This document shows positions 13,376-17,294 of a stretch of DNA of 64,000 nt, piece by piece. A program made the position numbers and the translations under genes. The notes under the pieces were generated by a model. The model ran no database searches and was not told the origin of the DNA. It was given only the letters and a program-made list of their open reading frames with translations. Source of the stretch: an uncultured bacterium (GTDB lineage Bacteria; Acidobacteriota; Thermoanaerobaculia; Multivoradales; JAHZIX01); contig CBDUPA010000024.1 of NCBI GenBank assembly GCA_965368975.1, positions 23,689 through 87,688 on the forward strand, read 5' to 3'. The number at the start of each line of letters is the position of its first letter. Position 1 is the stretch's first letter.

Positions 13376-14353
13376 TTACCAGTTCAGCAAGCGGGCGAAG
13401 ATCAACGGTGCGACGATGGTGGCATCGGACTCGATGATGAACTTCGGCGTGTCCACCTCCAGCTTGCCCCAGGTGATTTTCTCGTTGGGCACGGCGCCGG
13501 AGTAGGAGCCGTAGCTGGTCGTCGAGTCGCTGATCTGGCAGAAGTAGCCCCACATCGGGATGTCTTCCAGGTCCAGATCCTGGTGCAACATCGGCACCAC
13601 GCAGATCGGGAAGTCACCGGCGATGCCGCCGCCGATCTGGAAGAAGCCGATCGAACCTTGTTCGCTGGTCGCCTGGTACCAGCGTGCCAATTGCATCATG
13701 TACTCGATGCCGCTGCGCACGGTGCGCGGGTCTTTCAGCTCGCCGGCCAGGCAGGCGGCTGCGAAGAAGTTGCCGAGCGTCGAGTCTTCCCAACCAGGGA
13801 CGAAGATCGGCAAGTCCTTCTCCGCGGCGGCGACCATCCAGCTGTTCCTCGGGTCGATCTGGTAGTGCTCTTCGAGACTGCCCGAGCGCAGAACCCGGTA
13901 CAGGAACTCATGCGGGAAGTGGCGCCGCCCTTCTTGGTCCGCGGCGCACCACTCGCGCTTGACGTGCACCTCCAGCCGCCGCATCGCTTCTTCCTCGGGG
14001 ATGCAAGTATCGGTGACCCGGTTGAGGTGACGGTCGAGGAGCTCCTGCTCCTGCTGTGGCGTCAGATCCCGGTAGTGGGGCACGCGCACGTAGTGGTCGT
14101 GGGCCACCAGGTTGAACAGATCTTCCTCCAGGTTGGCACCGGTGCAGCTGATGGCGTGGACCTTGTCTTGGCGGATCAGCTCGGCCAAGGACAGCCCGAG
14201 CTCAGCGGTACTCATCGCACCGGCCAGGCACACCAGCATCTTGCCGCCATCCTCGAGGTGTGCGGCGTAGGCGTCAGCGGCGTCGACCAGGGCAGCGGCG
14301 TTGAAGTGGCGGTAATGGTGGTGGATGAACTGGGTAACGGGACCTTGGCTCAT
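13376..14353 (-). CDS. Deoxyhypusine synthase-like protein (DHS / homospermidine synthase family)
   Basis: LAGAMSTAELG, SCTGANLEED, LNRVTDTCIPEE, PGWEDSTLG, IGGGIAGDF, GSYSGAVPNEKITWGK (catalytic Lys equivalent), IESDATIVAP. RBS GAGGAG before ATG 14353. Confidence 0.92.
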   Translation of the reverse strand: MSQGPVTQFIHHHYRHFNAAALVDAADAYAAHLEDGGKMLVCLAGAMSTAELGLSLAELIRQDKVHAISCTGANLEEDLFNLVAHDHYVRVPHYRDLTPQQEQELLDRHLNRVTDTCIPEEEAMRRLEVHVKREWCAADQEGRRHFPHEFLYRVLRSGSLEEHYQIDPRNSWMVAAAEKDLPIFVPGWEDSTLGNFFAAACLAGELKDPRTVRSGIEYMMQLARWYQATSEQGSIGFFQIGGGIAGDFPICVVPMLHQDLDLEDIPMWGYFCQISDSTTSYGSYSGAVPNEKITWGKLEVDTPKFIIESDATIVAPLIFARLLNW

Positions 14354-14448
14354 GATCTGTCTCCTCGGCGGATCGTCGGACCGGCTGGGCGCTAGCTTCC
14401 GCACTGGGGCCAGCGAGCTCTGAAGAAGGAAACCCTATCAAGAATTTT

Positions 14449-15525
14449 TCAGGGTTGGTGTTCGGCCTGCTGGCGGTTCTGCTGCATCTGTAGCGGTACC
14501 TTCGATGCGGCACCAGGGATCTCGCGCACCAGCTTGGGGACCAGGTAGCCCGGTAAGCGGGCCAGTAAGCCGCCGTAGAGACCCAGGGCCTCGAGCTCGG
14601 GAACATCGAAGTGGTGTGCGCCCTGCACTGGGTCGAGCAGGTTGAGGTAGTAGGGCAGCGCGCCGCATTCGAAGAGGCGTTCACTCAGCCGGGCCAGGGT
14701 CTCGACGTTGTCGTTGACGCCGCGCAGCAGTACTGCCTGATTTAGCACCGTGACGCCGGAAGCGCGCAGGCGACCGATGGCGGCGGCGACCTCGGCATCC
14801 AGCTCTCGAGCATGGTTGGCATGGAGCACCAGCACCGGCGTCAAGCGTCCGCCGGTCAGCCAGGCGAGCAGCGCATCGTCGACGCGCGCGGGCAGCACCA
14901 CGGGCTGGCGGCTGTGTACGCGCAAGCGCCGCAGGTGCGGGATGGCGGCCAGTTCGCCAGCCAGCCGCGCCAGGGTGTCGTCGTGCAGCGACAGTGGATC
15001 GCCGCCGCTGAGCAGAACTTCCGTGATCGACGGGTCGGCCGCCAGGTAGTCGAGGGCTGCTTGGTGCTGCGAGCGGTGGACGGCCTGGTCAGCGTAAGGA
15101 AAGTGGCGGCGGAAGCAGTAGCGGCAGTGGATGGCGCAGGCACCGGTGAGCACCAGCAGGGCACGCCCACGGTACTTGTGGAGCAGGCCGGGGACGCCGG
15201 GGCTCGCCTCGGTCTCGGCCTTCGAGGTTCCGACCTCGGCCAAGGGGTCGCGAGAAAAACCCGCCACGGCCTCCTGCTCGACGTCTCGCGGCAATACCTG
15301 CAGCAGCAGCGGATCGCGTGCATCACCCCGCCGCATGCGAGCGACGAAGCCACGCGGCACGCGCAACGGGAATTGCTGCTGCGCACCACGGGTGGCCAGC
15401 ACGGAAGGCACGTCGACATCTTGGCGGTCGAGGTCGAGCAGGCTCAGTAGCTCGTCGAGGTCGGTGACGGCGTCCGCCAGCTGGCGCTGCCAGAGTGGTA
15501 CATCCCGGTGTGCACGCGATATCAT
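14449..15525 (-). CDS. epmB: EF-P beta-lysylation protein EpmB (lysine 2,3-aminomutase, radical SAM)
   Basis: [66 protein letters not shown]; divergent from efp. Confidence 0.93.
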
Positions 15526-15670
15526 GAGCGGCCGTCCCGTGGACGCAAGAGATCTTCGACTTCCCGGACGCTCACGGTACGGTCCAGCCCCCATCGAGAC
15601 AGCGGTCGAAGAGCATCCCGTTCAAGAAACACCATCGCGGTGCAAGCATAGCGGCAACGCAGGAGGAATG

Positions 15671-16234
15671 ATGGCCACCTACAACACCAATCAGCTACGC
15701 AACGGCCTCAAGCTGTTGATCGACGGCGAACCGTGCAACATCGTCGACATCGATTTCGTCAAGCCGGGCAAGGGCCAGGCGTTCGCGCGTGTCAAGATTC
15801 GCAACCTGCTCAACGGCCGTGTGCTGGAGAAGACGTTCAAGTCGAGCGAGTCGCAGGAAGGCGCCGACGTCATGGAAACCAACATGCAGTACCTGTACAA
15901 CGACGGCGAGTACTGGCACTTCATGGATCCCAACAGCTACGAGCAATACCAGGCCGACGAGACCGCCTGCGCCGACGCCAAGCAGTGGATCTTGCCTGAG
16001 GACGTGTGCACCGTCACGCTGTGGAACAGCTCGCCGATCTCCGTGGCGGCGCCCAATCACGTCGAGCTGACCATCACGCAGAGTGACCCGGGCGTCAAGG
16101 GCGATACGTCTTCGGGTGGCACCAAACCGGCGACCCTGGAGACTGGCGCGGTGGTCAAGGTGCCGCTGTTCGTGCAGGAAGGCGAGAAGATCAAGGTCGA
16201 TACCCGCACTGGTGAGTACCTCTCGCGAGCCTGA
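15671..16234 (+). CDS. efp: Elongation factor P
   Basis: [10 protein letters not shown] modification loop, [43 protein letters not shown]. Start is ATG 15668 or 15671. Confidence 0.97.
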
Positions 16235-17294
16235 CGCCTCCTCGGGCGCGTGCCGCGCACCGAGGTGGCGCCCGACGGCGACGCTCGAGACGCTGCGCCA
16301 GCGTGGCGCCATCTTGGCCGAGCTGCGAGCCTTCTTTGCCGAGCGTGGTGTGCTCGAGGTCGAGACGCCGCTGCTCGGCCGCGCCAGCGTGACGGCCGTG
16401 CACTTGCACAGCTTTTCCTGCACCTATCAGCCGCCCTTCGGCCAGGATCTCCCGGGCGAGCGGCTCCCTCCTGACGAGTCGCGCCTCTACCTGCAGACTT
16501 CCCCCGAGTACGCGCTCAAACGCCTGCTGGCCGCCGGCGCGGGGGCCATCTACCAGCTCGGCAAGGTGTTTCGCGACGGTGAGGCCGGCAGCCGTCACAA
16601 CCCCGAGTTCACCATGTTGGAGTGGTACCGCCCGGGCTGGGACTACCACCGCTTGATGGATGAGGTCGACGAGCTGCTACAGCGTATCCTGGGCACGCGC
16701 CCGGCCGAGCGTGCCAGCTACCGCGACGTCTTCCGGCGCCATCTTGGCCTCGATCCACACCAAGCAACGGGGGCTGAGCTGCGCGCCGTGGCGGCGCGCG
16801 CCGGCCTCGACGTCGAGGCGCTAGGACTCGAGGCGGACGACCGGGACGGTTGGCTCGATGCCCTGATGAGCTTGGTCGTCGAGCCGCGCTTGGGGCTCGA
16901 CGTGTCCGGGGGCAGGCAGCCTCTCCTGCTGCACGGCTACCCGGCGTCGCAGGCCGCGCTGGCGCGCCTCGGCCGCGACGAGGAGGGAACGCTGGTGGCC
17001 GAGCGCTTCGAAGCGTATGTCGACGGTGTCGAACTGGCCAACGGCTACCAGGAGTTGACCGACGCCGCTGAGCTGCGCCGCCGCTTCGAGGACGACCTCG
17101 AACAGCGACGCCTCCGGGGCCTGCCCGCGGTGCCGCTCGACGAGCGGTTGCTGGCGGCCCAGGAGGCGGGCTTTCTGGAGGTCGGTCTGTCGGCGTGTGC
17201 CGGTGTGTCGGTCGGCGTCGATCGTCTGGTGATGCTGGCTGTCGGTGCCCGTCGCATCGAGGACGTGCTCACCTTTCCGATCGACCGCGCCTAG
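16212..17294 (+). CDS. epmA: EF-P lysine--(R)-beta-lysine ligase EpmA (GenX/PoxA)
   Basis: [75 protein letters not shown]. Probable GTG start at 16212, overlapping the efp 3' end. Confidence 0.93.

What the first reader, a model, noticed from the sequence alone, without database searches (positions are those of the whole stretch)
13376..17294. Deoxyhypusine synthase homologue inside the efp-epmA-epmB locus
Seen: the dhs-like gene lies 95 nt downstream of epmB on the same strand, divergent from efp(PGKG)-epmA; it keeps the WGK lysine; no epmC is present in the window. Established: EpmA/EpmB beta-lysylate the EF-P lysine, DHS modifies the equivalent lysine of eIF5A/aIF5A, and several bacterial DHS homologues make homospermidine instead. 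Inference: enzymes for two chemistries that could target the same residue are clustered. This could mean an alternative or compound EF-P modification (e.g. aminobutylated lysine or beta-lysine), or polyamine synthesis co-regulated with EF-P.
Basis: partly seen in the sequence, partly recalled or inferred. Interest (0 to 1): 0.7.

Follow-up and report, generated by a model that had tools for sequence, protein, structure and literature searches.

The report
Homospermidine enzyme riding EF-P operon
In one small bacterial family a gene resembling the enzyme that modifies the eukaryotic translation factor eIF5A sits directly behind the EF-P modification genes, but it most likely makes the ordinary polyamine homospermidine from agmatine and is probably only a passenger there.

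Summary
In detail: an intact DHS-family gene (325 aa, Lys297 in WGK) lies 95 nt after epmB, opposite efp(PGKG)-epmA. The epmB-dhs order is kept in 4 of 4 assessable family relatives (gaps -4 to 39 nt), so it is real but family-restricted. It is missing in 15 of 15 order relatives with the same epm locus and orthologue, and efp/epmA/epmB flank 0 of 160 wider orthologue loci, whereas 39 have agmatine-pathway genes. The protein is 69% identical to a Winogradskyella DHS, the genus whose SpeY was shown to couple two agmatines (Li 2026). All five family genomes carry a pyruvoyl arginine decarboxylase-ureohydrolase pair elsewhere. Orthologues persist where EF-P has Asn, not Lys, at the loop tip. Sister families fill the slot after epmB with unrelated passengers (thioesterase, peptidase, ankyrin protein). 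Best reading (0.83): SpeY-type homospermidine enzyme, likely co-transcribed with epmB, while EF-P is beta-lysylated as usual. EF-P modification by it is untested and not excluded (about 0.05); its donor would be agmatine (+113/+71 Da).

The parts
13376..14353 (-). DHS-family gene, 325 aa; likely SpeY (diagmatine / G44G synthase) of the subfamily that includes Flavobacteriaceae SpeY
   Evidence: Pfam PF01916; DHS fold, TM about 0.7 to archaeal and human DHS; 69% identical to Winogradskyella echinorum DHS
13463..13465 (-). Codon for K297 of WGK, equivalent to human catalytic K329 and CdmS K299
   Evidence: Sequence; alignment to human DHS; invariant in 60 of 60 orthologues
14354..14448 (-). 95-nt spacer between epmB and dhs with a GAGGAG ribosome-binding site; no terminator-like or sigma-70-like site found, so co-transcription is likely
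   Evidence: gaps of -4, -1, 28 and 39 nt in four relatives
14449..15525 (-). epmB, lysine 2,3-aminomutase, 358 aa, CxxxCxxC intact
   Evidence: TIGR03821 439 bits, over cut-off; motif check
15671..16234 (+). efp, 187 aa, loop V-K-P-G-K34-G-Q; the KPGKGQA core is the same as in unlinked relatives
   Evidence: TIGR00038; loop alignment; K34 codon at 15770-15772
16212..17294 (+). epmA, EF-P beta-lysine ligase, about 360 aa from a likely GTG start overlapping efp; Ala replaces the conserved Asp two residues before the H52-equivalent (codon 16395-16397) in this genome only
   Evidence: TIGR00462 369 bits; PDB 3G1Z/3A5Z alignment; 27-sequence alignment

Best explanation
The gene sits directly behind epmB in this family and most likely encodes a SpeY-type enzyme that joins two agmatine molecules into diagmatine (G44G), the precursor of homospermidine, rather than an enzyme that modifies EF-P. 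Inferred pathway: a pyruvoyl arginine decarboxylase encoded on another contig makes agmatine; this enzyme, using NAD+ and an imine on K297, couples two agmatines; the ureohydrolase encoded beside the decarboxylase removes the two guanidino groups. EF-P K34 is inferred to be beta-lysylated by EpmB and EpmA, without EpmC hydroxylation. The dhs gene probably moved behind epmB once in the family's ancestor and stayed as a co-transcribed housekeeping passenger. Shown here: gene identities, order, distribution, residues. Inferred: every activity and the co-transcription.
For: (1) Subfamily: 45 of 61 Flavobacteriaceae genomes have exactly one DHS gene; all 30 fetched are 67-72% identical to this protein, 27 of 30 have a ureohydrolase next door and 29 of 30 a short alanine-racemase-fold decarboxylase within 1.5 kb. 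That is the layout and size range of the tested Winogradskyella algicola cluster (SpeY 325 aa, SpeB 313 aa), whose SpeY made G44G, as did all 7 SpeY tested (PMC13625781). A named Winogradskyella DHS is 69% identical. (2) Neighbours: arginine decarboxylase, ureohydrolase or aguA/aguB flank 29 of 80 GTDB loci and 10 of 80 metagenome loci; efp, epmA or epmB flank 0 of 80 and 0 of 80. Two gammaproteobacterial genomes that have EpmA keep this gene between speA and aguA. (3) Partners: a pyruvoyl arginine decarboxylase lies directly upstream of a ureohydrolase in 5 of 5 family genomes, the partner set of Caldilinea SpeY; spermidine-synthase domains pass the cut-off in only 2 of 5. (4) Independence from EF-P: 15 of 15 order relatives (5 families) with the same epmB/efp-epmA locus and an orthologue keep them apart; G013 and G023 have a 74% identical orthologue although their EF-P loop is PGN, without lysine; DHS genes occur in 143 of 151 class genomes and none of 138 others with both positions listed has one near efp. 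(5) Passenger control: the slot after epmB holds a thioesterase in 3 of 3 genomes of one sister family (gaps +5, -4, -4), an M20 peptidase in 2 of 4 of another, an ankyrin protein in 3 of 4 of a third. (6) Residues: human D243 and D316 align to N195 and Y284, the two positions at which CdmS also loses the acids (PMC10981699); N173 and Y176, needed for eIF5A modification (PMC10042821), align to E120 and A123; these positions read the same in linked and unlinked orthologues.
Against: No activity was measured. The tested W. algicola sequence itself was not retrieved; subfamily membership rests on genus, length and gene layout. The protein scores far below the cut-off of both named SpeY-type NCBIfam models (117 versus 450 and 97 versus 500 bits), although the Winogradskyella protein does too. 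The linkage has survived divergence to about 57-62% EpmB identity, with overlapping stop and start codons in two genomes, which is compatible with selection. Li et al. did not examine EF-P (0 mentions), so a side reaction on EF-P has not been excluded. An archaeal DHS solved in complex with its IF5A (8PUT) also lacks the D243 and D316 acids, so that argument is weak alone, and the residue mapping rests on a roughly 20%-identity alignment.
Confidence: 0.83

Rival explanations
1. The enzyme makes homospermidine, but the shared transcript with epmB is selected: polyamine supply and EF-P activation are co-regulated because both support peptide-bond formation at difficult sites.
For: Linkage in 5 of 5 assessable family genomes across 4 genera with short or overlapping gaps; no terminator-like site in the spacer. 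That polyamines assist translation is general knowledge (recalled).
Against: The decarboxylase and ureohydrolase genes are not co-located; the same slot holds unrelated, equally tightly coupled genes in sister families; no recurrence in 160 wider loci or 138 class genomes.
Confidence: 0.1
2. The enzyme also transfers a 4-guanidinobutyl group from agmatine onto EF-P, either on K34 in place of beta-lysine or on an amine of the beta-lysyl group, and the ureohydrolase then trims it to aminobutyl, giving bacterial deoxyhypusine or a longer compound modification.
For: Family-wide adjacency; intact K297 and DHS fold; EF-P K34 present; an agmatine-then-agmatinase route is the favoured, unproven model for Haloferax aIF5A (PMC5178350); reviews call a bacterial DHS-EF-P link plausible but unshown (PMC6544042, PMC12856214); EpmA in this genome has one unusual Asp-to-Ala change.
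Against: EpmA and EpmB pass their equivalog cut-offs, and the other four linked genomes keep that Asp, so K34 already has a complete pathway; no family-specific change in the EF-P loop or the DHS active site and entrance; two of three human residues needed for eIF5A loop binding and the H288 position differ; orthologues persist with a lysine-free EF-P; 0 of 160 wider loci are near efp.
Confidence: 0.05
3. The enzyme uses free beta-lysine made by EpmB, or another diamine, as acceptor and makes an unusual small polyamine unrelated to EF-P.
For: It is coupled to epmB, not to efp-epmA; eukaryotic DHS accepts putrescine as an alternative acceptor (PMC13625781).
Against: Active-site residues are identical to those of orthologues that sit in agmatine operons of genomes without EpmA; no supporting neighbours.
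Confidence: 0.02

Closest known systems
SpeY / CdmS, N1,N9-bis(guanidino)homospermidine (G44G, diagmatine, caldomycin) synthase; W. algicola WP_138435141, C. aerophila WP_014432699, T. thermophilus CdmS (PMC13625781, PMC10981699)
   Same: DHS fold, catalytic lysine, loss of the D243/D316 acids, 325-aa length, 67-72% identity to Flavobacteriaceae DHS genes in ADC-speB-speY clusters, arginine decarboxylase plus ureohydrolase in the genome
   Different: Located behind epmB rather than with its decarboxylase and hydrolase; activity untested; below the cut-offs of NF001980 and NF002699, which model other SpeY branches
EF-P beta-lysylation locus efp-epmA-epmB (E. coli, Salmonella; PMC2821294, PMC3950694)
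   Same: epmB divergent from efp, PGKG loop, EpmA and EpmB over equivalog cut-offs
   Different: No epmC; likely Acidobacteriota host (inferred from a TIGR03436 domain protein); a DHS-family gene follows epmB
Eukaryotic and archaeal deoxyhypusine synthase acting on eIF5A/aIF5A (PDB 8A0E, 8PUT; PMC10042821)
   Same: Fold (TM about 0.7), E137, E323, W327, K329 and D342 equivalents kept
   Different: About 20% identity; D243>N, D316>Y, K287>G, H288>D, N173>E, Y176>A, L295>M; no bacterial DHS has been shown to modify EF-P according to PMC12856214
Proposed agmatine-dependent deoxyhypusination of Haloferax volcanii aIF5A (PMC5178350)
   Same: Would use the same three enzyme types: pyruvoyl arginine decarboxylase, DHS homologue, agmatinase-like hydrolase
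   Different: Unproven even in Haloferax; there clustering with aIF5A spans many Euryarchaeota, here the linkage is confined to one family and the target lysine already has EpmAB

Membership tests
SpeY/CdmS (agmatine-coupling DHS homologue) | DHS fold with catalytic WGK lysine | tested here: met
   PF01916; Foldseek to 8PUT E 4e-14, TM 0.72; K297
SpeY/CdmS (agmatine-coupling DHS homologue) | Close orthology to an experimentally tested SpeY | tested here: inconclusive
   69% to W. echinorum DHS; 67-72% to 30 of 30 Flavobacteriaceae DHS with the W. algicola layout; the tested W. algicola sequence was not retrieved
SpeY/CdmS (agmatine-coupling DHS homologue) | Arginine decarboxylase and ureohydrolase or iminohydrolase in the genome | tested here: met
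   PF01862 gene directly upstream of a PF00491 gene in 5 of 5 family genomes; TIGR00286 and TIGR01230 over cut-off
SpeY/CdmS (agmatine-coupling DHS homologue) | No putrescine-type homospermidine synthase (pathways reported as mutually exclusive) | tested here: met
   The only PF16653 gene matches saccharopine dehydrogenases and no HSS structure; checked in detail in this genome only
SpeY/CdmS (agmatine-coupling DHS homologue) | Loss of the spermidine-binding acids D243 and D316 | tested here: met
   N195 and Y284 by alignment, invariant in 60 of 60; CdmS has F204 and L286. Not specific: archaeal 8PUT also lacks them
SpeY/CdmS (agmatine-coupling DHS homologue) | Score over the NCBIfam cut-off for NF001980 or NF002699 | tested here: not met
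   117 of 450 and 97 of 500 bits; the Winogradskyella protein also fails, so these models do not cover this branch
SpeY/CdmS (agmatine-coupling DHS homologue) | Forms G44G from two agmatines | not testable with these tools
   needs expression or an enzyme assay
Protein-modifying DHS (eIF5A/aIF5A type) | Residues needed for hypusination in human DHS: E137, D243, H288, W327, K329, N173, Y176, L295 | tested here: not met
   3 of 8 identical (E77, W295, K297); others N195, D247, E120, A123, M255; mapping from a low-identity alignment
Protein-modifying DHS (eIF5A/aIF5A type) | Distribution tied to a lysine-tipped target factor | tested here: not met
   74% identical orthologues in G013 and G023, whose EF-P loop is PGN; 0 of 160 wider loci near efp
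Protein-modifying DHS (eIF5A/aIF5A type) | Aminobutyl or guanidinobutyl group on EF-P K34 | not testable with these tools
   needs mass spectrometry
EpmAB EF-P beta-lysylation system | efp with PGKG, epmA and epmB over equivalog cut-offs and clustered | tested here: met
EpmAB EF-P beta-lysylation system | EpmA residues required for EF-P lysylation (E103, H108; H52 contributes) | tested here: met
   E103, H108 and H52 equivalents present (roles from PMC3950694); R235 not checked separately; the role of the changed Asp was not found in print

The most novel reading that the evidence does not exclude
In this family the SpeY-type enzyme has been recruited to EF-P: it puts an agmatine-derived guanidinobutyl group on EF-P K34 or on its beta-lysyl arm and the ureohydrolase trims it, giving the first bacterial deoxyhypusine or a fourth EF-P chemistry (+113/+71 Da alone, +241/+199 Da on beta-lysine). 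This four-gene cluster would be the natural test case for the open question of whether any bacterial DHS modifies EF-P.
Probability: 0.05. Interest if true: 0.85.

Novelty: new member of a known kind. Interest (0 to 1): 0.2.

Why it matters
Whether bacterial DHS homologues ever modify EF-P has been open since 2004 and is still called unshown in a 2026 review (PMC12856214). This locus is the only dhs-efp physical linkage in the samples examined here, and my paper searches found no report of one, so it is the best place to run that one cheap experiment. The comparative evidence, however, points to an ordinary agmatine-route homospermidine enzyme that happens to follow epmB in one family. The practical gain is an annotation (likely speY, partners on another contig) and a correction of the assay: agmatine, not spermidine plus putrescine.

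Tried and rejected
Complex prediction of a DHS dimer with EF-P residues 1-130: no answer, neither support nor evidence against. Sequencing runs: none was listed, so co-transcription and the EpmA codon could not be checked against reads. Retrieving the tested W. algicola SpeY: two homologue searches and one cluster look-up did not list WP_138435141; they gave Balneolaceae, Flavobacterium and W. echinorum. Trees (the first run, timed out): the five linked DHS proteins are scattered at low support among orthologues from agmatine operons; one origin is neither shown nor excluded; no AU test was run. A putrescine-type homospermidine synthase in the family, which would have freed DHS for another job: the candidate is a saccharopine dehydrogenase next to an AlaDh/PNT-domain gene. 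A damaged EpmA as a sign of replacement: the Asp-to-Ala change is in this genome only, 1 of 27 sequences with one more having Glu, and one search for its role found no paper. Family-specific co-evolution: columns fixed in the five linked genomes and rare elsewhere number 5 in DHS, 2 in EF-P, 3 in EpmA and 1 in EpmB, none at a mapped active-site or loop position. Spermidine as donor: spermidine-synthase domains over cut-off in 2 of 5 and AdoMet decarboxylase in 4 of 5 family genomes, not clustered with dhs. The WGK lysine as a marker of protein modification: rejected, CdmS keeps it.
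Full report
Observation. The four genes are as described. The DHS-family ORF runs 13376-14353 on the minus strand (325 aa, PF01916 E 9e-41) and starts 95 nt after the epmB stop. epmB (14449-15525, minus) passes TIGR03821; efp (15671-16234, plus) has PGKG with K34; epmA passes TIGR00462 and most likely starts at GTG 16212. An AlphaFold model (pLDDT 90.6) matches archaeal and human DHS with TM about 0.7. 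No epmC was found in this genome or four relatives. No terminator-like or sigma-70-like site was found between epmB and dhs, so co-transcription is likely but not shown. The host is probably an Acidobacteriota; this is an inference from one TIGR03436 domain protein.

How far the linkage goes. Of five other genomes of the family, four (three other genera) have epmB followed by dhs, with gaps of 39, -1, -4 and 28 nt; in the fifth the contig ends inside epmB and a dhs tail starts another contig. Outside the family it disappears. Nineteen genomes of the same order carry an orthologue at about 60-74% identity; 15 of them (five families) also have the same epmB/efp-epmA locus, and none has dhs beside it, while 5 of the 19 have arginine decarboxylase within 1.5 kb of dhs. 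Among 80 orthologue loci from GTDB genomes (up to 5 kb flanks; 70 with at least 1 kb on both sides) and 80 from metagenomes (up to 4 kb; 48 with at least 1 kb on both sides), efp, epmA or epmB appear in 0 and 0, and arginine decarboxylase, ureohydrolase or aguA/aguB in 29 and 10 (one epmA-like hit in L102 was lysyl-tRNA synthetase, and was not counted). In 151 genomes of the class, 143 have a DHS gene; comparing the two position tables by eye, none of the 138 other genomes with both positions listed has dhs within 10 kb of efp (three lacked an efp match, one had its match unlisted, 22 further efp matches were unlisted, many assemblies are fragmented; one row, G109, is unpublished and the count does not depend on it).

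A control for family-level coupling. The slot just after epmB is filled by family-specific, unrelated genes in sister families: a thioesterase in 3 of 3 genomes (gaps +5, -4, -4), an M20 peptidase in 2 of 4 (57, -4), an ankyrin protein in 3 of 4 (of 18 loci examined, the others had convergent or unassigned genes). Family-wide, tightly coupled adjacency to epmB is therefore common and is weak evidence of shared function.

What the enzyme most likely is. It belongs to a very large subfamily (all 8000 scored candidates at E below 1e-100) that falls under the cut-offs of all named NCBIfam DHS models. In Flavobacteriaceae, 45 of 61 genomes have exactly one DHS gene; the 30 fetched are 67-72% identical to this protein, 27 have a ureohydrolase next door (mostly 311-314 aa) and 29 a short alanine-racemase-fold decarboxylase. 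This is the arrangement that Li et al. 2026 describe for Winogradskyella algicola (SpeY 325 aa, SpeB 313 aa), whose SpeY, like all seven tested, coupled two agmatines to G44G, which SpeB converted to homospermidine (PMC13625781: I read parts 1-5 of 7 of the text and the supplement's tables; its figures are not held). A named Winogradskyella echinorum DHS is 69% identical to the window protein. I could not retrieve the tested sequence itself. The window's genome and its four relatives each carry a pyruvoyl arginine decarboxylase gene directly upstream of a ureohydrolase gene on another contig, the partner set of Caldilinea SpeY in that paper. No putrescine-type homospermidine synthase was found; the only candidate in this genome is a saccharopine dehydrogenase.

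Residues. On the alignment to human DHS (numbering counted by me, about 20% identity), E137, E323, W327, K329 and D342 are kept, while D243, D316, K287 and H288 are N195, Y284, G246 and D247. Thermus CdmS differs from human DHS at exactly D243 and D316 and keeps the lysine (PMC10981699, passages), so the WGK lysine does not indicate protein modification. N173, Y176 and L295, whose alanine mutants abolish eIF5A modification (PMC10042821, passages), are E120, A123 and M255. Against over-reading this, the archaeal DHS of 8PUT also lacks D243 and D316. All the positions checked read the same in the five linked proteins as in unlinked orthologues, including those in agmatine operons; the EF-P loop core KPGKGQA is shared with unlinked relatives, and EpmA and EpmB motifs are intact. 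Two genomes with a 74% identical orthologue have Asn at the EF-P loop tip, so this subfamily is maintained without a target lysine.

Evidence on the other side. The linkage is old enough for EpmB to have diverged to 57-62% identity, and two genomes overlap the stop and start codons. Li et al. do not mention EF-P, so a side reaction on it was not examined. For Haloferax aIF5A the favoured but unproven model is transfer from agmatine followed by agmatinase trimming (PMC5178350, passages), which uses the same three enzyme types found here. EpmA of this genome has Ala where 25 of 26 relatives have Asp and one has Glu; the four other linked genomes keep Asp, and I found no paper on this position.

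Mechanism, with status. Shown: gene identities, order, distribution and residues. Inferred: arginine to agmatine by the pyruvoyl decarboxylase; two agmatines to G44G by this enzyme through NAD+ and a K297 imine; G44G to homospermidine by the ureohydrolase; EF-P K34 beta-lysylated by EpmB and EpmA; one relocation of dhs behind epmB in the family's ancestor (the DHS trees neither show nor exclude one origin). Odds: passenger SpeY 0.83, SpeY with selected co-regulation 0.10, EF-P modification 0.05, other acceptor 0.02.

Literature. Passages only were read from PMC12856214 (no experimental evidence links bacterial DHS to EF-P), PMC6544042 (plausible, connection elusive), PMC2821294, PMC3950694, PMC13602936, PMC11388002 and PMC12931083; none of the passages reports a dhs gene beside efp or epmB. 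Searches listed no such report; subscription papers and these papers' supplements (for example the genome tables of PMC6544042 and PMC2821294) were not seen and could hold it. Brochier 2004 was seen only as a citation.

Verdict. Real and family-conserved arrangement, most likely a new member of the known SpeY homospermidine pathway in an unusual position. Interest 0.2; the EF-P reading stays open at about 0.05 and would deserve 0.85.

Noticed in passing
G012, G022, G031, G040 (loci L143, L150, L156, L162): One genus of the same order has efp (PGKG) coupled to an over-cut-off epmA but no EpmB or KamA-family gene in 4 of 4 genomes that are 98-99% complete, three of them single-contig. The source of beta-lysine, or EpmA's substrate, is unexplained there; the gene divergent from efp is an unrelated secreted-type protein.
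   Followed up: partly
window 16395-16397: EpmA has Ala where 25 of 26 relatives and E. coli have Asp, two residues before the H52 equivalent; a one-base change that could be real or an assembly error; no reads were listed to check it.
   Followed up: partly
G000:C15:86216-87679 (L115, L125): Pyruvoyl arginine decarboxylase gene directly followed by a ureohydrolase gene, conserved in 5 of 5 family genomes; likely the missing partners of the dhs gene.
   Followed up: yes
G000:C14:182803-184209 (L284): A second, 469-aa KamA-family radical SAM protein below all aminomutase cut-offs; weak matches of this kind also occur in G001, G010, G013 and G038. Substrate unknown.
   Followed up: no
G000:C2:8281-11129 (L278): Adjacent AlaDh/PNT-domain and saccharopine dehydrogenase genes, likely the two halves of the eukaryote-type lysine degradation enzyme; the dehydrogenase is in 5 of 5 family genomes.
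   Followed up: partly
L023, L024, L067, L071, L074: Some orthologues carry an in-frame insert of roughly 20-70 residues after about position 230 of the DHS domain; the G002 copy has a shorter one.
   Followed up: no
L068: Two tandem copies of the DHS-family gene in a Chitinophagaceae contig.
   Followed up: no
window 6292-11693 (-): A 1053-aa TPR protein with a CHAT-like C-terminal region (recalled motif, not scanned in Pfam) downstream of two ORFs of 424 and 371 aa with no Pfam or NCBIfam match; possibly a protease-linked signalling module.
   Followed up: no
window 11917-13026 (+): A 369-aa predicted secreted protein with an internal near-duplicated acidic stretch and no family match.
   Followed up: no
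window 48001-52000: Low-GC island (48-59% against about 66% for the window).
   Followed up: no
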